Source of the DNA: Perkinsus olseni
Taxonomy: Eukaryota
Assembly (NCBI GenBank): GCA_013115125.1
Contig: JABANN010000122.1
Span: 48,110 to 68,109 of the forward strand
Length of the DNA stretch: 20,000 nt
Direction: 5' to 3'
The position numbers and the translations under genes were made by a program. Within the stretch, counting starts at the first letter, position 1; every line of letters begins with the position of its first letter. This document shows, one piece after another, positions 871-15,823 of the stretch. Under the pieces are notes generated by a model. That model made no database searches, had not been told where the DNA came from, and saw only the letters and a list, made by a program, of their open reading frames with translations.

Positions 871-1047
871 TTTATTTTTAGAAAATTGTACGTCTCCGTT
901 GCACAAATTGGCAAAGGAAATTCAAGGTTGATCTGGTCCGGGGGCGGGACGCATCGTCATGTTATTCAACAACAGTTTCACTTGATTGCCTCTTGTGCAT
1001 TACCTATCTTTCCGTATTATTGCACTTATACCTCTTGACACAACATC

Positions 1048-2522
1048 ATGAACGGTATTCCAACCCCGATGCCTGTTGACTTGTCTGATATGGACAAAAC
1101 TCAGCAGAGAGAGGATGACACTACTAGTGGATCTGAGTCTCAGAAGATCGTTCCTAAGGTAGGCGTCGTGGGCTCCCCTCTCTGGCTCCACTTCTCCCTA
1201 CTTTTCCTCGCAATTCGTCGGGTGTGGCGCTGTATAACTCGGATTTCACTAGTTGATGATTCTCAGGAATGTTCGAATTGCGGAAGGATTCCTGAGAATC
1301 CTTTGCGATGCGGTGTGTGTAAGAAGGTAGTCTACTGCGATCGGAAGTGTCAGAAGGAGGACTGGCGGTTCCACAAACGTATTTGCAAGAAGCCTCAACC
1401 GAAGAAGGATCCTGCTGTCGAGGCTGCTGAGAAGAAGGCAAGGCAACAGCGAGCTGCTGAGAAAAGTGAGCTCTGGAGCTATCCATCAGAGGAGATTTCA
1501 GAACAACGTCTCCTGATATCTCAGAGACCGTCGAGCCATTCCGGTCGACTAAGGATGATGATGTTGTGGTGGAGGATGAGAAGCTGTACTGGTAGGATGG
1601 TCATGAGTCATCAGTACGTCGTCCAACCGTCAACGACAAGGTATCGTCATCGGGAGTGGATACCAGAACATAAGCAAGAATTCAAGCCCCACGAGATTGA
1701 CGTATCGACAGCAGTGGAAGCCGACGCGGCGGAGGCCGGTGCTTCTAGTCCTCAAAAAATCCAAGCGACCGAGTCTGAGGGACACACCGGGAAGAGTGTG
1801 TGGAATACAGCTGATACGTAAGGGCCGCATACCGTCTACTTTCGCCCATCCATCCTTTGGTATCATTCTATTGGTCATCCTATCGATATAACCCTGATGT
1901 GGTGGCTATTGGTCGAGCGTGTAGTTGGTTGACTCTCATTAGATACGAAGAGCGGAATACCACCGAGTGGGCCAATGATTGGCTCAACAACAATCTTCCA
2001 GGTAGGAGGAGGAGCAGACACAATAGGGTCGAACGGAGCCTTAAATTCTCCGTCGGTCTAGGCTCTTCCTTTGATGGCCCTGAAGATATCAGTGTGGTGG
2101 TTGATTCCGTGAACAATCTTGAAGGAGATGCTGCCATACCGATCGTCAGAGGTGAGGTCGTCTTAGTTTCCCTTCGAGCTCCACCGTCCCATCGATCATC
2201 CCTCCGAACAGGTACAGCTCGGTATGTATACGACTACAAGTTTAAATTGGGCACCAGTGTCACGTTCAGGGGTGAGTTGTCGCTGAGGGGAGGACCGTCG
2301 TCTGGGAGAGATCCTCGATCAGGTCTTCAACTTGAAGCGGATATAACCGTGGATGACTTTGCTAATGACATGGAGCCCTACACCTTCCACGTGAATGTTA
2401 AGGACAAGCAGGGTGTTGATAGGGACGCCATCACCACAGCACGGTCTATCATAATTAAGGCCATCATCCCGCAGTTTATTTCCAAATTGGGCGAATTTGT
2501 GACGGAGTACCATAAGCTTTAG
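1048..2522 (+). CDS. MYND zinc-finger / Aha1 (activator of Hsp90 ATPase) N-terminal-like domain protein, ~320 aa, 8 exons
   Basis: Exons 1048-1158, 1267-1465, 1525-1591, 1641-1817, 1943-2001, 2062-2151, 2212-2271, 2323-2522; all GT-AG, total 963 nt in frame. The MYND motif is CSNC...CGVCKKVVYCDRKCQKEDWRFHKRIC. The C-terminal half SVWNTADTYEERNTTEWANDWL...VDSVNNLEGDAAIPIVRGTARYVYDYKFKL...FISKLGEFVTEY resembles Aha1_N. Confidence 0.8.
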
Positions 2523-9203: not shown

Positions 9204-9331
9204 CTAACAAAGAGGATAATGAGGAAAAGCTGCAATACAGGCCAGGCTTGAGGTCTTGCTGAATCTTGAAATATCTCAACGCTTCTATGTCACCTTCGTC
9301 TACTACTGTCCATTGAATTTCTCTTTTTATC

Positions 9332-10048
9332 ATGGGATTCTGCGGTCGTGATACATCATTCCTGTGCTGCCTACCAGCGCGTTGGGGTACTTTCCTCACT
9401 ACTATTGTTGAAATTATCGTATGTGTTGGTATGGCTATTGTACCAAATATGATGTTATTGCAATCTGCTCTTGCCTTTGATATCCATTGTGATGAGTATA
9501 CCCTTACCCATACACAGGTCTCTCAGCTCACCGAAGACTTTAGACAACAGCTGAGGAGTAGAATATCAACATCAACCATCGAACAGGTCCATACAGCATA
9601 CTATGTGATGTTGGCCTTCATCGCTTTGGGTGCACTTGTCGGTCTTATTGGTTTAGCCTGCCGTAGTCCCTGGATGGTTAAGACTTATGCAGTATTCGAC
9701 GGTCTAAGTATCATTGCTATCATTGCCTTAGCCTGTGTCTATGTGTACCCTAACATATCAGCTGTGGCCGCCTCTACCAACTATATCTACTATCAGGATC
9801 TACCTGAGATCACTGGCCATCCGAGCGAGGATCTTGGAATATCAATCAAGAATGTATCATGGATTGCTGTAACAGGATTCCTAGTAATCCTGTCTATCAT
9901 TCGTATATGGTTTGTATCAGTAGCCGCTGATGCAGCTAGAGAGATCCGTCAAGATAACAAGTATATGGTGGTGGACTACAATCAACAACAACAACCGCTG
10001 TTGGTGGGTGGCCAGCCGAATGGCAGCAGTCGCGTTGTAGTGGTTTGA
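9332..10048 (+). CDS. Intronless four-transmembrane protein (tetraspan/LAPTM-like topology), 238 aa
   Basis: Single 717-nt ORF with four hydrophobic stretches (FLTTIVEIIVCVGMAIV; YYVMLAFIALGALVGLIGLAC; YAVFDGLSIIAIIALACVYVY; WIAVTGFLVILSIIRIWFVSVAA) and an N-terminal FLCCLP Cys motif. Confidence 0.8.
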   Translation: MGFCGRDTSFLCCLPARWGTFLTTIVEIIVCVGMAIVPNMMLLQSALAFDIHCDEYTLTHTQVSQLTEDFRQQLRSRISTSTIEQVHTAYYVMLAFIALGALVGLIGLACRSPWMVKTYAVFDGLSIIAIIALACVYVYPNISAVAASTNYIYYQDLPEITGHPSEDLGISIKNVSWIAVTGFLVILSIIRIWFVSVAADAAREIRQDNKYMVVDYNQQQQPLLVGGQPNGSSRVVVV

Positions 10049-10207
10049 GTGTTGATGGAGTAGATGATCATCATTGCAGCTGTCGTAAACATCATGGATC
10101 GTCGTTAGATAGATTTTCCCACCGCATGTTACTTGTGTTGCCCGTTATATAAATTACTCAACAATATAATAGTAAAAATATCACATAGAGGATGATACAT
10201 TATAAAA

Positions 10208-13200
10208 CTACGCTGCATCAGGTGCGGACGGTAAACTCGGTAAGCCTTCTTCTGCTTGGATTGGTGGTGTGTGTACGCCTGCAGTCGTGCCCTCTTCACT
10301 GACCTCGTTAGATGTACGAGGGGTAGGTGGTGGTGGGAAGGTATCCGATAGGTCAGCAACAACATCTGGGATCTTGATCACAGGCAGCACGTCGTCGTCA
10401 TCATCAGGTCTTCTTGTTCCCTCATTGATTATCTTCTCTCCATTAGACCATGTTGCATTAGTGGTAACACCATTATGTACCTCTAGACCATGACCATCTC
10501 GTACACCCTAACAATGGTATACCCAATATGCTACCGCTGCTGCTGCTACCGCTGTTGATGTTGCTAACCTGTTTGAAGTGTCCATCATACATATACCCAT
10601 CTGGACCTTTCAGTATACCATGTCCACTAGCATATCCTTTATCATCCAACATACCAGCATATCTGTTCATCATCATCATCATCATCATCACAAATCAATG
10701 GCACAATCATCGTCACTTACGTATAACCAAGTTTAGTATATGTAATTTGGACGCTCTGGCCTGTAGCATTACAGCAACGACCACTCAACCACTCTGCCTC
10801 GATGACCACCTACACTAGGACACGTGATAACAACGGGAACAACGCTCTTGGTGTGGTATTGAAGTGATGTTAATAATGATAACGAGTGTTGTTGTTATTA
10901 CACCCTCATTCACGCAGGTTAGAGTACCACTGCCTGTCCTCTGGCCGGCCACCCATGAGCCTTCATACTCGTATCTTATACAACATGATGATGGTAATGA
11001 TAATATGGAGTTCGAAGTTACTTATTAAGATATACACAAGTACCACTACCATTGGGTAGATCATTCTTAAACCCACCAACATATACTCTGGACGATGGAT
11101 TACTAGGGGAAGTACTGAGACATGTTCATGTAGAGCGGCGCTATGAACATCATCATCACTCACCGTAGTTGACCATTGCCACATCGTTTATTGCAATGAT
11201 ATTCCCCAATATAGATGTTACCCTCAGGATCGGTGAAGCGTCCAACACCCTCCTTCATACCATTCCCTGCACTATTCTCTAGTAGGCATAGTTGTTGTAT
11301 TGTTGTTATTACTGAATTCTCCTTCATAAACGTTCCGGTCCTTATCAACTAAGCATCCATAACCATCATAACGGTTATTAGAGAAATGCCCACTGTACTT
11401 CTCTCCAGTCGCCTTATGAGCGCTCCTATCACATAGTGACGATGGTGGTGGTGGTGGTGGATGTGGTACTACTACCTCCCATTGCCCTCTCTTTTATCAT
11501 CCTTCCATTCACCATCATACACATACCCTCCATCTTCACACACTAGTTCGCCCCAACCATTACGCAAGTCATTACACCAATTACCATCATAACTGAATAA
11601 TGACGCATCTTAAACAAAGCCACGACCATGCTGCTGCTGCTGCTGCTGCTGTTTACACGATATTGTGTGATGGGCAGATGTACTTCCCACGACCATGTCG
11701 TTTACCATGTAGCCATTGACCAACATACTGACATCAGAGGCTACTCATGGTCCTTAGTGATGCTGCTGCTGCTGCTCACCTCGTCACCATTATCCCAGGT
11801 AGCATACCCTTCCCCACTACTCGTTGGTCTCTTTAGGAGACGACGACCCTACCAGTAGTATGAGTAGTAGTATTAGGAGGGGAGGGCCTTACCTTGGATG
11901 ATGATTTACCCTTCTGTGGAGGCTCTCCAGTGGCTGAGGCTAGTATAGCTGTTCCTTCTGATAAATGCTGAACACAACATGAACACCACCACCACCTGGT
12001 AGGGAGATGATACCTGAGTCGACCGCCACTTGGCGTAGTTGCTAGTTTGCCTCCATCTATCAGCAAAGGTATTCGTAGACTGTGGGTTACTGCGTATCCT
12101 CGAGGCCTGGGTCTGTAGCCAACCCAACCAATACTTCTGTATAACACCTACAAGGGGTCTGTGTAGTCGTCAACAACCACAACACCAACAACAATGCGTA
12201 CTTATTATATTATCCGTAGCCTTAGTGATAGCAGACGTCTCGTCAGGTACATCCTCGCCTGACCAGCAACAACAACAACAGAGTCCCTCCCAGTCTACCA
12301 CAGCCCAGTAGCCCACTTGATCCAAGCTTAGCTGAGCTGCTATCCTCGATGCCTGCTGCTGCTGACCCCTCGTTAGGCTGTAGCAGTAACAGGGAATACT
12401 CAGTATTGTGCAGTAGTAGTATGATGGCCTACCCTCTCCGATGAATCACTATCATCATCATTATCGTCATCATCAGTGATCTCATCATCTTCTTCAACAC
12501 CAATAGGTGGCTCAAGTGATAGGGGTATTAGTAGATGATCATAGTCTCCACCAGTAGTAGTGCCCTTATTTGATACAACATCATCGTCATCATCTTGACC
12601 AGGCCAGCCACTCGACTGTAAGTTGATATCGGTCATGATGTTATCTCTAACATTACTCCTCTCATGAACGTAGCTACCGAGAATACTCGACGACGACGAA
12701 GACAGCGACGACGAGGAGGAGGAGGAACCTGCGGTTGGGTAATGGATGATCCCAGATGATGTTGTGGACTACCTTTGTGATGACGTCGTCGTGTACGCCT
12801 CGAAGTAAGGATGAGTCGATGGACATCGTCTGTTAAGCCATGAAGAGTCTTCATTAACTTCTTCTCATCTTTATCCAGTTTCAGGTACTTCATAAGCTCC
12901 TTCCCAGCATCATCCACCCCGCCTATCTTGTTGGTACTGAATAGGAATGATAGGTATGAGTATAGTACTACTACTATCGTATTGGTATTACACCACAGTC
13001 CTCTTGTCCATGTCCACGATGATGTCAGCTTGGAGGCTACGATGAGACAATAACAAGGAATTACTTGTACCAATGAGGAAGCCTCGGCACTGAATAGTAG
13101 TAATAATAATAAGGATGATGGGTTTACTGGTCTATCTATCGTCACTTGATAAAGGTCGTCCATGAGCTCCAATGAGACGTAGGTGTAAAGCGGGCATCTC

Positions 13201-15126
13201 CCATTAAATAAGCATAAGGGTAGACCATGCCGCTTCAGTGTATAGGAGGGAGCCCCAAACCCTGGACTGCAGATCAATAATCATCATGATGACATTAACG
13301 CATGGATGCTCATTCAAGTAGTATCACCTATTGAAGCCTAGATAGTTCTGACCAGGCGGTAGGCATGCTAGTATAGCTAAGACGGTACTGGACGCCACTC
13401 TAGCCTTGGATGAGTATACAATAACTCTTCGCTCTAGCATCACTGCCTGAGGGGTGGTCAGATGATGACGATGCTGGGATGGGATGGTACGGAGAGTATG
13501 GTGGAGTAGCTCACCTTAACAATCCACCAGAGTTTATCATCCAATGCTCGGATAAGTGAGACAACATCAATGCCTCTATGCAGCTCATACGGACCTACCG
13601 ATAGTGTACCCTGATGGTGATAATACACTGATTACTCATATTCTGCCATTGAGTAGTCCTATTCAGCTGCTCTACCATCGTCTGTAGTATCGCTACATCT
13701 CCAAAGTCCATTTGCTGATTATGAATAGATGATCAGCATCCATTGTTAGTAATCAATGACGACGTACTTGGAAATATGATACAATTATACACTCTACCCT
13801 CTGGAGGAGGTTGCCGAAGAATGGTACTTTAGATAGGACCACTACCGCTTTCTGAGTAACACGCTCATGTACACTGGTGATACTAGTCGGAGAGCAGTAT
13901 CATCACCTGGACGTATCCTCTTGTTACATCCTTATCTTTATGTATCAACCGACTAGCAGGTACACGGTAGTATATGGATACTCCGAACATGAGCTCTGAT
14001 CACCATCAACATCATTAGGATGTAGTGTATGGTATTACCTCCACAATGGGTAGGGAGGATCATGTACACGTAATCAGGCCTAATGGATAATAGAGTAAAC
14101 GTACAGGGATTCGAACCGGTGACCTATCTTTCACTACTTACTTGTTACTATGAGCACCATCTGGTAAGGCAAGCATGGGAATCCATGGCAATACTGATGC
14201 CAGATCAGTCTTAAGGGATGATGGGGTGGCATCATATTTGATTGGTGCATAGGAGTCAACACTAGGGTAACTTGATAAGGCTACTATCCGATTGGCAGAG
14301 TTATCGCTGAATTCAACCAGGGAGGCGCCTAAGAAGGATACCTAGTGAGAACAACCCCACTGGGGAGTAGAAACAGAAGGCACACCCTGACGACCACTTA
14401 CAATCATCTTCGCTCAACTCAGGAGCATAGACATACTCTATACATGGGCCGTGGTAGTGATGGAAGTTCACAACCTGAATGATGGCGATGATGACCATGA
14501 CAACAACAACAACAGTAGTAGTAATGCAGGGAAGCGCGTAATAGAGGCAGAGCACCAGCACCTACCGCAACAGCACATATAGCATTGCCATGAGCTGTTG
14601 GGTCGTAGAGACAAGCCTCGGTGGTGGTGGATGATGAAGAGGCCGCCGACTGAGGGAAGGATAGCCTTCCTAGATTATCATAATACGACTAATGATGATG
14701 ATGCTCACCATTGATGATGCAGTGGTGGTATCTATGCCTCCTTCTCTTCTCTTATGTCGATGATGGTGATGCTTCCCTTTATGACCATTAGCATAGACAA
14801 TACTCCGAGCATTGGCTGATGACCCCCCACCACGCCCGCCCTCTATTAATGCTCTAACCATAGCGTATCTACAGCCAGCAATGCAACCACCAATGTTATA
14901 CAGTAACATCATCATCATCATCACCCTTGATCATCTTCTACAGTAGAGGTGAGGTCATCATCATCATCATCACTACCGATCTCGTAGATTGTAGGACTGC
15001 TACTAGGGGGGCCTGAGTTCTTGGTAACAACTCTTGGCTACTACAAACATGCCTACCTTCACCACGACCACCAACGCTGGTTGAATGGAGGAGGGGATTC
15101 ATATCATCTACAGCTAGCCTTGAGAG

Positions 15127-15165
<39 letters not shown>

Positions 15166-15285
15166 GCCTGAGAGTCCTGCTACTATCCCTAACTGTCATC
15201 AGGCCCTACCTGATGAGGAGCCATCAGAAGACTCAGAGTCCTTATCGAACCGTCGCTGTACAGAATTCTTCAATTTCTTGAACAT
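10208..15285 (-). CDS. AVL9: AVL9/DENN-domain protein with C-terminal MORN repeats (more than 20 exons)
   Basis: Starts at ATG 15285 (MFKKLKNSVQRRFDK). AVL9 motifs: ICAVAVVNFHHYHGPCIEYVY, PMLALPDGAH, LMFGVSIYYRV...KDVTRGYVQKAVVVLSKVPFFG, AVMLERRVIVYS, HGLPLCLF...YVSLELMDDL, GFLIGTSNSL, FADRWRQTSNYAKW. Then about 10 MORN units (YVGQWLHGKRHGRG, YDGNWCNDLRNGWG, YDGEWKDDKREGNG, YSGHFSNNRYDGYG, YIGEYHCNKRCGNG, YVGGFKNDLPNGSG, YEGSWVAGQRTGSG, YDGHFKQGVRDGHG). TAG stop at 10208-10210. Confidence 0.85.
15128..15163. repeat. (GAT)12 microsatellite in intron 1 of the AVL9-MORN gene
   Basis: Twelve perfect GAT copies. It is the longest of many shorter trinucleotide runs in the introns of this window. 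Confidence 0.95.
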
Positions 15286-15823
15286 GTATTGACAAGCAGA
15301 GCAAAACAAGCTTAATCGATTGGACTGGGCATCTTATCGCACGTCATTGTTGTTATCATTTACGTCAGCCTGCCACCGTACATCCCCTCATCACTATCCC
15401 TCCTCTCAGTGGTGATATGAGCTTGAGCTCAGAACGAAGGTATTGAGTATAGCCCCTTATCGAGGAGAAGGCTACGTACTACGATGATGGGTTGAGTGTA
15501 GAATCAGAGGACGCTGTCCGCGACCAACTAGTATAACACAAGACTAGCATCTCGAGAAGCCAGTGGTGAATTCGAGTAGTAGTAGTAGTAGTAGAAGAGG
15601 TAGGTAACTTCTCTCATCAATGTTAACGGTCATACTACCGCCGCCGCCGCCGCTGCAGCTGCTGGTGCGGGTTGTAAGTATACATCCGCCCCGAAAGGTG
15701 GCCAAGTCCACAACTCGTGAATGTACCAGCGTTTGAGGAACATCTGAGATAGCGTTTATAAATGGGCAGAAATGATGATGAGGATTACTGCTGTGGTGGC
15801 ACAGTCCTCATCTTCTTGGTCTT

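What the first reader, a model, noticed from the sequence alone, without database searches (positions are those of the whole stretch)
10208..15285. AVL9/DENN domain fused in frame to a ~10-unit MORN array
Seen: the AVL9 C-terminal motif (RWRQTSNYAKWRSTQ, ~12015-12060) is joined by phase-0 GT-AG introns through exons HLSEGTAIL...KSSSK and GRRLLKRPTSSGEGYATWDNGDE directly to the first MORN unit (YVGQWLHGKRHG, ~11727). There is no intervening stop, so this reads as one polypeptide. Known: yeast and animal AVL9 are DENN-fold small-GTPase regulators of late secretion and, to my knowledge, lack MORN repeats. MORN arrays are scaffolds in alveolate pellicle proteins and are paired with a Rab-GEF (VPS9) domain in alsin. 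Inference: this is an alsin-like architecture built from a different GTPase-regulator domain, possibly tethering exocytic traffic to the alveolar/apical cytoskeleton.
Basis: partly seen in the sequence, partly recalled or inferred. Interest (0 to 1): 0.7.

Follow-up and report, generated by a model that had tools for sequence, protein, structure and literature searches.

The report
AVL9–MORN fusion gene, conserved, not new
This is one real, spliced gene of a Perkinsus-like protist that joins an AVL9-type trafficking-regulator domain to about eleven MORN repeats, but the same fused design is shared by many related protists including malaria and Toxoplasma parasites, so it is an untested yet already catalogued protein family.

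Summary
On the minus strand a 28-exon reading frame (ATG 14861 to stop 10208-10210, 1038 aa, 27 GT-AG introns of 41-92 nt) runs from an AVL9/DENN module through three phase-0 introns into 10 clear and 1 degenerate MORN units. Single spliced contigs from three runs in three studies cross the junction. The model's spliced length equals the contig coordinates exactly (3118 nt).

The novelty claim fails. The closest proteins are Perkinsus chesapeaki (75% identity) and P. marinus (64%) predictions with the same Avl9+MORN design. Of 37 representative relatives scanned with Pfam, 31 carry both domains. By a local count, 44 of the 150 best hits do. The 17 clusters named to an organism are all alveolates or stramenopiles, among them Toxoplasma, Babesia and Theileria. 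A 2011 paper already listed P. falciparum PFE0560c as an "AVL9 ortholog with MORN domains".

I found no functional study. Mechanism is inferred: a DENN-type small-GTPase regulator positioned or paired through its MORN array.

The parts
10208..14861 (-). Minimal coding region: 28 exons, 27 GT-AG introns (41-92 nt, mean 57), 1038 aa, stop TAG at 10208-10210
   Evidence: Model built from the joints. Spliced length from 14868 to 10214 is 3118 nt, equal to the coordinates of X2 contig record 9.
14869..14941 (-). Inferred 73-nt intron (GTAGAA..CTGTAG) upstream of the exon that holds ATG 14861
   Evidence: X1 and X2 contigs both extend exactly 185 nt beyond 14868. 14942 to 15126 is 185 nt, and 15126 abuts the perfect (TGA)13 repeat at 15127-15165. 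This is an inference; the joint itself was not among the 15 listed.
14942..15195 (-). Upstream exon or open frame: either 5' UTR or an N-terminal extension, with an in-frame ATG at 15102 and a poly-Ser tract over the triplet repeat
   Evidence: The frame is open from 15195 to 14942 and in phase with 14868. Coding status is unresolved.
13328..14474 (-). AVL9/DENN core (aa 80-330 of the model), starting with VVNFHHYHGP
   Evidence: Colinear Pfam Avl9 fragment hits. The orthologue P0001 scores 186 bits on Avl9 against a cut-off of 22. phmmer of the spliced model against 4 MORN-less AVL9 proteins gave 94-114 bits over aa 146-402.
12202..13266 (-). Rest of the AVL9 module and a Ser/Asp-rich low-complexity insert (aa about 330-596)
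   Evidence: Alignment with P0001 and P0002. Composition of aa 401-620: S 34, D 29.
12026..12067 (-). AVL9 C-terminal motif FADRWRQTSNYAKW (aa 623-636)
   Evidence: The tryptophan at this position is kept in at least 90% of 32 fused family members.
11968..12013 (-). Junction intron 1 (46 nt, phase 0)
   Evidence: Joint in X1, X2, X3 and X11.
11893..11967 (-). Linker exon 18 (HLSEGTAIL...KSSSK)
11849..11892 (-). Junction intron 2 (44 nt, phase 0)
   Evidence: Joint in X1, X2 and X3; not in X11.
11780..11848 (-). Exon 19 (GRRLLKRPTSSGEGYATWDNGDE): end of the linker and a leading half MORN unit
11728..11779 (-). Junction intron 3 (52 nt, phase 0)
   Evidence: Joint in X1, X2 and X3; not in X11.
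10439..11815 (-). MORN array (aa 677-962): 10 clear units starting at aa 689, 713, 737, 761, 784, 807, 834, 857, 909 and 933, plus one degenerate unit near aa 881
   Evidence: Pfam MORN hits in 6 pieces; regex and coordinates. A family profile hits MORN1 structures, 6t4r at 204 bits.
10211..10438 (-). Acidic and Pro-rich C-terminal tail (aa 963-1038)
   Evidence: Partly alignable to P. marinus P0002.

Best explanation
This is a single nuclear gene of a Perkinsus-lineage alveolate. It is the orthologue of P. marinus Pmar_PMAR018749 and P. chesapeaki FOL47_011002, and it belongs to a protein family shared by alveolates and stramenopiles. In that family an N-terminal AVL9-type DENN module is permanently fused, through a short linker placed after the conserved WxxTxNYxxW motif, to a C-terminal array of about 11 MORN repeats.

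Shown: the gene structure, the splicing across the join, the continuous reading frame, the two domain identities, and the conservation of the architecture.

Inferred mechanism: the AVL9 module acts like other DENN-superfamily modules, as a regulator or binding platform for a small GTPase of post-Golgi or recycling-to-surface traffic. The MORN array forms a rigid beta-sheet rod that pairs the protein or docks it onto a protein partner at a defined cortical site, so that GTPase regulation is localised.

My confidence in the identity is about 0.95. My confidence in the mechanism is about 0.35.
For: Gene and fusion. Single spliced contigs cross the junction: X1 record 2 (2828 nt), X2 record 9 (3303 nt) and X3 record 11 (3085 nt), from three studies. 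All 15 listed joints read CT..AC on the + strand, which is GT..AG on the minus strand. The model is one open frame of 1038 aa, and its spliced length equals the contig coordinates.

Domains. P0001 scores Avl9 186.3 and MORN 115.9 bits; P0002 scores Avl9 116.7 and MORN 107 bits.

Orthology. Identity is 75.2% (607 of 807) to P0001 and 64.4% (566 of 879) to P0002, colinear through the junction. The three form a 100/100 clade in the AVL9-core tree.

Conservation. 31 of 37 Pfam-scanned representatives have Avl9 plus MORN. In all 31 the first MORN lies after the Avl9 match. A local phmmer over all 150 best hits found 45 with an AVL9 core; 43 of these have at least 3 regex MORN units, and P0098 adds one more by its Pfam MORN hit. 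The family consensus is continuous across the join.

Mechanism leads. The related DENND6/FAM116 proteins have Rab14 exchange activity, and human Avl9 overlaps recycling endosomes and is needed for cell migration (passages of PMC3383995). MORN1 proteins dimerise through their MORN repeats and did not bind membranes (abstract of PMC7725318). The array's best solved relatives are those MORN1 chains.
Against: No exchange activity could be measured for human Avl9 on any Rab tested, and the same paper mentions some evidence that yeast Avl9 is not a Rab exchange factor. So the catalytic step is unproven even for the founding members.

No solved AVL9 structure exists in the PDB copy. The only DENN-type sequence hit of the family profile was DENND10 (8p0v_M) at E = 2e-4.

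Three of the four runs are RNA only by the tool's guess, and contigs cannot show transcript ends or rare isoforms.

The individual window exons each score below or just under the Pfam Avl9 cut-off (best 21.7 against 22). The spliced window protein itself could not be passed to Pfam, so membership rests on colinearity, on the orthologues and on a local phmmer.

The 5' end is unresolved. No localisation, partner or phenotype data were found for any family member.
Confidence: 0.7

Rival explanations
1. These are two adjacent genes, AVL9 and a MORN protein, joined only by read-through transcription, by an assembly chimera in the contigs, or by my gene model.
For: The tool itself warns that a contig across two genes shows no single transcript. 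Contigs were laid, not raw reads. Linker exons 18-19 are poorly conserved in sequence between the Perkinsus species.
Against: The same spliced contig was recovered in three runs from three studies, with three phase-0 introns in the linker and no stop. The model's length matches the contig exactly at 3118 nt. The fused order Avl9 then MORN recurs in 31 of 37 scanned representatives from two major lineages, among them transcriptome-derived proteins (Polykrikos, Selenidium and Ancora).
Confidence: 0.03
2. The MORN array is a direct membrane or phosphoinositide anchor. It would hold the AVL9 module on the plasma membrane or alveolar sacs, so the protein tethers exocytic carriers to the pellicle.
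For: MORN motifs are described as implicated in plasma-membrane binding in alsin (passage of PMC6032885). Junctophilin and PIP5K MORN chains are among the PDB sequence matches of the family profile. [quoted passage not shown]
Against: The same study found no binding of TbMORN1 to membranes or lipid vesicles, in vivo or in vitro, and redefined MORN repeats as protein-protein modules (abstract). The architecture also occurs in stramenopiles, which by my recollection have no alveoli. A pellicle-specific role therefore cannot be the ancestral one.
Confidence: 0.2
3. The AVL9 module is non-catalytic. The protein would then be a scaffold or adaptor, for example one subunit of a larger complex, rather than an exchange factor in its own right.
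For: No exchange activity was measurable for human Avl9. The authors suggest a missing subunit may be required and state that whether Avl9 is a Rab exchange factor is unresolved. The only DENN-type chain matched by sequence, DENND10, was solved as one chain (M) of a multi-chain entry (8p0v).
Against: The close relatives DENND6A/B are active on Rab14. The AVL9 core is the best-conserved part of the family across distant lineages, which fits a conserved binding or catalytic surface.
Confidence: 0.25

Closest known systems
Perkinsus chesapeaki FOL47_011002 (P0001, partial) and P. marinus Pmar_PMAR018749 (P0002; UniRef name 'AVL9/DENND6 domain-c...')
   Same: They are orthologues at 75% and 64% identity, colinear through the junction, with the same Avl9+MORN Pfam content. 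The three form a 100/100 clade.
   Different: Both are database predictions. P0001 lacks the last MORN units and has a different predicted N-terminus. P0002 lacks about 42 aa of the AVL9 core present in the window and in P0001, probably a missed exon. The window's species is neither of the two.
[quoted passage not shown]
   Same: It has the same two-domain combination, recognised by domain-context scoring (table passage).
   Different: It is known to me only from that table row. I did not fetch its sequence, so orthology was not tested here. My equation with PF3D7_0511300 ('MORN repeat protein') is recalled, not shown.
Yeast Avl9p and human AVL9
   Same: They share the AVL9-type DENN module, including the FHHxxGP start and the WxxTxNYxxW end motif. 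They have roles in late secretory and recycling traffic.
   Different: The 4 MORN-less AVL9 proteins examined (one named, the fungus Wolfiporia; three unnamed) have no MORN. The biochemical activity of AVL9 is unknown.
DENND6A/B (FAM116A/B), Rab14 exchange factors
   Same: They belong to the same Pfam-level 'AVL9/DENND6' grouping, by the UniRef names. They are DENN-related with demonstrated Rab14 activity.
   Different: They are a different subfamily with no MORN array. No target GTPase is known for the AVL9-MORN family.
Alsin (ALS2/ALS2CL): MORN repeats plus a VPS9 Rab5 exchange domain
   Same: It has the same design logic: a MORN array joined to a Rab-regulator module.
   Different: The catalytic fold differs, because no VPS9 hit was found in P0001 or P0002. 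The order is opposite, since alsin's MORN motifs lie before the VPS9 domain. Alsin orthologues were reported absent from all SAR taxa, whereas every named AVL9-MORN protein here is from SAR. It is not a family member.
MORN1 of Toxoplasma, Plasmodium and Trypanosoma (PDB 6t4r, 6t4d, 6t6q, 6t69)
   Same: These are the best solved sequence relatives of the MORN half, at 171-204 bits. They are MORN-only rods that dimerise tail to tail.
   Different: MORN1 has no other domain. Whether the array here dimerises was not tested.

Membership tests
AVL9 family (Pfam PF09794, AVL9/DENND6-type DENN module) | Significant match to the Avl9 profile over the core | tested here: met
   Five colinear fragment hits from the window's exons, each at or below the 22-bit cut-off (best 21.7) because the exons are short. 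Orthologues P0001 and P0002 score 186.3 and 116.7 bits. The script-spliced window protein scores 94-114 bits by phmmer against 4 MORN-less AVL9 proteins. The spliced protein itself could not be passed to Pfam.
AVL9 family (Pfam PF09794, AVL9/DENND6-type DENN module) | N-terminal FHHxxGP start and C-terminal [FW]xxxWxxTxN[YF]xxW motif (my working description, not a curated definition) | tested here: met
   VVNFHHYHGP lies at aa 80-89 and FADRWRQTSNYAKW at aa 623-636. The C-terminal motif is found in 4 of 4 MORN-less AVL9 proteins, in 3 of 3 Perkinsus-type sequences, and by strict regex in 7 of 31 other fused representatives at the expected place, plus 1 off-site match in P0021.
DENN superfamily | Tripartite longin / DENN / d-DENN fold | not tested
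Sequence hints only: Pfam DENN PF02141 scores 25.6 bits for P0002 (cut-off 23.4) and 23.1 bits for P0001 (below cut-off), with SPA PF08616 at 38-39 bits. The family profile hits DENND10 8p0v_M at E = 2e-4.
DENN superfamily | Nucleotide-exchange activity on a Rab or other small GTPase | not testable with these tools
   This needs biochemistry. It is unresolved even for human AVL9.
MORN repeat proteins (Pfam PF02493) | Tandem units of about 23 residues of the type YxGxWxxGxxxGxG, matching above the cut-off | tested here: met
   Five window pieces score above the 22.5-bit cut-off (36, 28.3, 26.2, 25.6 and 22.9 bits) and one scores 20.2. There are 10 regex units at 23-27-residue spacing plus 1 degenerate unit.
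AVL9-MORN fusion family of alveolates and stramenopiles | Avl9 module followed by a MORN array in one protein, with a homologous junction | tested here: met
   31 of 37; consensus continuous across the junction; clade with the Perkinsus members.
Alsin / ALS2 (MORN-VPS9 exchange factors) | VPS9 catalytic domain | tested here: not met
   No VPS9 family appears among the Pfam hits at E <= 0.01 for P0001 or P0002. None appears in the window pieces.
MORN1-type dimers | Antiparallel dimerisation through the C-terminal MORN repeats | not tested
   The complex-prediction job was never accepted because the queue was full.

The most novel reading that the evidence does not exclude
AVL9-MORN is the functional counterpart of alsin in alveolates and stramenopiles. 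Published work could not find alsin (MORN plus VPS9) in these lineages. They instead keep a MORN array fused to a different GTPase-regulator fold. That protein would pair or dock through MORN-MORN contacts, possibly with MORN1-type cortical scaffolds, and would locally switch on a Rab11-like GTPase that delivers vesicles to the cell cortex or pellicle. That would make it a conserved and so far unstudied control point of surface and pellicle biogenesis in Plasmodium, Toxoplasma, Babesia and Perkinsus.
Probability: 0.12. Interest if true: 0.6.

Novelty: new member of a known kind. Interest (0 to 1): 0.27.

Why it matters
As a discovery it matters little. The gene is a further orthologue of a protein already predicted in two Perkinsus genomes. 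Its two-domain design is catalogued in public databases and was remarked on for P. falciparum in 2011.

The family itself is a fair open problem. It is conserved across alveolates and stramenopiles, including several important parasites. It joins a regulator domain whose biochemical activity is unresolved even in humans to a repeat array now thought to mediate protein-protein contacts. In the paper searches I ran I found no functional, localisation or structural study of it.

Every named member found here is from SAR, while alsin has been reported absent from SAR. That pairing offers a simple comparative hypothesis that tagging and depletion experiments in Toxoplasma or Perkinsus could test.

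Tried and rejected
Unavailable resources
- No whole genome is held for this window. Paralogues and a MORN-less AVL9 copy in the same organism could not be sought.
It says nothing either way.
- The yeast Avl9 paper (PMC1838974) is not held. Yeast statements come second-hand.
- Earlier scan notes: nothing found.

Searches that gave little
- The word-indexed homologue search with full-length P0002 found only 7 proteins and was too insensitive to judge distribution.
- A literature search with min_terms 2 was badly built, because AVL9 was not required, and gave nothing useful.
- 'DENN + MORN + Toxoplasma' matched names such as Dennis. None of the 12 listed titles concerns this protein.
- In two of the 'AVL9 + MORN' papers, 'morn' is only the author name Mornon.

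The 5' end
- Enumerating ORF-preserving GT-AG paths from upstream ATGs gave thousands of solutions in the low-complexity region. It therefore cannot fix the start.
- One translate call used the wrong frame and was repeated.

Read evidence set aside
- Depth figures come from contigs and from repeats. I did not use them for expression, apart from a rough comparison with the neighbouring gene.
- Loose ends at 11460, 12706 and 14905-14974 sit on triplet repeats. I read them as other transcripts sharing the repeat, not as alternative ends.

The tree
- The position of the four MORN-less AVL9 proteins next to the ciliates (84/85, unrooted) is not strong enough to say anything about the origin of the fusion.


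Full report
**1. What is in the sequence**

The region is eukaryotic, with many short exons on the minus strand. I translated 25 stop-to-stop minus-strand pieces and scanned them against Pfam.
- Five pieces gave Avl9 (PF09794) fragment hits in the same order as the profile: positions 1-34, 27-49, 70-101, 95-127 and 172-212, from 14561 down to 13327. One of these pieces also hit DENN.
- Six pieces between 11733 and 10818 hit MORN (PF02493), five of them above the family cut-off.
- The other 14 pieces had neither domain.

**2. RNA evidence for the join**

A search of public runs found 24 holders, none with more than 0.46 of the sampled words, which is what spliced RNA would give. I laid four of them, from four different studies, on 9900-15600.
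- X1, X2 and X3 each contain one long contig (2828, 3303 and 3085 nt) that covers the gene in pieces from about 10200 to 14868 with the introns removed.
- All 15 listed joints have CT..AC ends on the + strand, which is GT..AG on the minus strand.
- The joints around the AVL9-to-MORN transition are 12145/12200 and 11967/12014 (seen in all four runs) and 11847/11892 and 11727/11780 (seen in X1, X2 and X3).
- Only X11 is on record as RNA; the other three are RNA by the tool's guess. Contigs that lack 40-90-nt GT-AG introns can only derive from processed transcripts.
- Limits: these are contigs, so they show presence but not ends, abundance or rare isoforms. Eleven further joints were not listed.

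**3. Gene model**

I combined the listed joints, the piece coordinates of X2 record 9, GT-AG rules, an open-frame requirement and similarity to the Perkinsus orthologues.
- The model has 28 exons and 27 introns (41-92 nt, mean 57), from ATG 14861 to TAG 10208-10210. It is one open frame of 1038 aa.
- Its spliced length from 14868 to 10214 is 3118 nt, exactly the coordinate span of the X2 contig. This is an independent check on the 12 introns I had to infer.
Exon 17 ends ...FADRWRQTSNYAKWRSTQ. Exons 18 and 19 form a 48-residue linker. Exon 20 opens with YVGQWLHGKRHG. The three introns between them are phase 0.
- Ten MORN units fit a regex at 23-27-residue spacing and an eleventh is degenerate.

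**4. The 5' end is not settled**

- The X1 and X2 contigs both run exactly 185 nt beyond the acceptor at 14868.
- A 73-nt intron 14869-14941 followed by unspliced sequence from 14942 to 15126 gives exactly 185 nt. It ends at the edge of a perfect (TGA)13 repeat (15127-15165), where a k-mer assembler would stop. I take this as the likely structure, but it is an inference.
- That upstream exon is open and in frame back to 15195, with an in-frame ATG at 15102.
It could serve only with an unobserved 69-nt intron (15193-15261).
- The ATG at 14861 aligns with the annotated start of the P. marinus protein.

**5. Whose gene and which family**

- A 67-residue exon found two longer proteins: P. chesapeaki FOL47_011002 and P. 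marinus Pmar_PMAR018749. Both were precomputed as Avl9 plus MORN, and my own Pfam scan confirmed this.
- The spliced model is 75.2% and 64.4% identical to them and colinear through the linker.
- In a maximum-likelihood tree of the AVL9 core the three form a 100/100 clade.
- The window therefore comes from a Perkinsus-lineage organism that is neither of those two species.

**6. How widespread the architecture is**

- An exhaustive HMMER search of 1.84 billion representatives with P0001 returned 39,050 hits at E <= 0.001. Most are MORN proteins. The best 150 were listed.
- I Pfam-scanned 37 of the 150: all 24 whose best stretch lay in the AVL9 part of the query, plus 13 top scorers whose best stretch lay in the MORN part. 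Of these, 31 had both Avl9 and MORN, 5 had MORN only and 1 had Avl9 only. The other 113 were not Pfam-scanned.
- A local phmmer of the window's AVL9 core against all 150 found 45 with an AVL9 region, P0001 included. Of these, 43 have at least 3 regex MORN units. P0098 has one regex unit plus a Pfam MORN hit, and P0026 has none.
- In all 31 Pfam-confirmed cases the MORN array follows the AVL9 module.
- Cluster look-ups for 30 of the 31 gave an organism name for 17.
  - Twelve are alveolates: Polykrikos, Cladocopium, Amoebophrya, Ichthyophthirius, Stentor, Selenidium, Ancora, Porospora, Toxoplasma, Besnoitia, Babesia and Theileria.
  - Five are stramenopiles: Aphanomyces, Thraustotheca, Globisporangium, Nannochloropsis and Chrysoparadoxa.
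  - I checked lineages with the taxonomy tool only for Chrysoparadoxa, Ancora and P. chesapeaki. The rest are from my own knowledge.
- The AVL9-core tree groups sequences by organismal lineage: oomycetes 96/82, dinoflagellates with Amoebophrya 99/97, ciliates 94/90, piroplasms 100/100 and coccidia 100/100.
- The family consensus runs unbroken from the WxxTxNxxxW motif into YxNGDxYxG...GxRHGxG.
- Together these results point to an old fusion inherited vertically. I did not root the tree or test a single origin formally.

**7. What is in print**

- 'AVL9' with 'MORN' is held by 22 papers. I read passages in four of them. In two, 'morn' is the author Mornon.
- 'AVL9' with 'Toxoplasma' gave 0 papers. 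'AVL9' with 'Plasmodium' gave 2, which are the same 2011 paper and an unrelated yeast survey.
- Searches on the two gene identifiers gave only population-genomic listings.
- Within this library I therefore found the architecture noted once and never studied functionally. Subscription journals and supplementary tables, for example localisation or fitness screens, were not searched and may hold data.

**8. How it most likely works (inference)**

- From passages of Linford et al. 2012: DENN modules are Rab exchange factors. DENND6/FAM116, the nearest relatives of AVL9, act on Rab14. Human Avl9 overlaps recycling endosomes and is needed for cell migration. Yeast Avl9 was found as a late-secretion mutant. 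No exchange activity could be measured for Avl9, possibly because a partner subunit is missing.
- From the abstract of Sajko et al. 2020: MORN1 from Trypanosoma, Toxoplasma and Plasmodium did not bind membranes or vesicles, and it dimerised tail to tail. MORN repeats were recast as protein-protein interaction modules. Those MORN1 chains are the best solved sequence relatives of the array here (171-204 bits).
- My best reading is a small-GTPase regulator or platform of post-Golgi or recycling traffic whose MORN rod pairs it or docks it to a protein scaffold at a fixed site.
I could not run structure or complex predictions to sharpen this.

**9. Comparison with alsin**

The analogy is fair as design logic, since both join a MORN array to a Rab-regulator module. 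It is not membership.
- No VPS9 domain is present.
- The domain order is reversed.
[quoted passage not shown] This complementarity is suggestive and untested.

**10. Verdict**

This is a new member of a known but functionally unstudied family, of modest interest.

Noticed in passing
window 10667-10690, 11443-11460, 11629-11651, 11761-11776, 12171-12194, 14500-14514: Perfect or near-perfect triplet microsatellites (TCA, TGG, TGC, CAA, ACA; 5-8 copies) sit inside six of the gene's tiny introns (against the intron table). Others lie in coding or 5' sequence (12451-12489, 12688-12714, 14907-14923, 14955-14972, 15127-15165). Three of the repeat sites the tool skipped in X1 (10659-10698, 11619-11658, 12443-12477) and loose ends at 11460, 12706 and 14954-14974 fall on these repeats.
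   Followed up: partly
window 9317-10121 (+ strand): A convergent neighbour: a 243-aa open frame (9317-10048) with no Pfam hit at E <= 0.001. Its RNA contigs have far higher word depth than this gene (bin 9900-10090: 5114 in X1, against about 55-90 across most bins of the AVL9-MORN gene). They end near 10119-10121, only about 65-90 nt from this gene's 3' end and stop (10186-10208).
   Followed up: partly
window 1039-1821 (+) and 1815-2522 (+): Open frames with a MYND zinc finger (PF01753, 50 bits) and an Aha1 N-terminal domain (PF09229, 46 bits), presumably exons of other genes.
   Followed up: no
window 14808 and 14826: The X2 contig differs from the window at two places (A>T and C>T). By my arithmetic from the piece coordinates, the X3 contig ends at about 14808. 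This looks like strain polymorphism among the organisms in the runs.
   Followed up: no
P0002 (P. marinus Pmar_PMAR018749), aligned to model aa about 230-271: The annotated P. marinus protein lacks about 42 residues of the AVL9 core that are present in the window's model and in P. chesapeaki. A missed exon in that annotation is the likely cause. Its Pfam Avl9 score is correspondingly lower (116.7 against 186.3 bits).
   Followed up: partly
P0018 (Globisporangium splendens, 2092 aa, partial): This protein has Avl9 plus MORN followed by a C-terminal protein kinase domain at residues 1593-1870. It is named 'Tkl protein kinase'. It is either a merged gene model or a three-part variant of the family.
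   Followed up: no
P0009, P0016, P0025 (unnamed representatives): Among the top MORN-only hits are long proteins that combine large MORN arrays with a kinase plus NB-ARC/STAND NTPase (P0009), with a kinase (P0016) or with a TIR domain (P0025).
   Followed up: no
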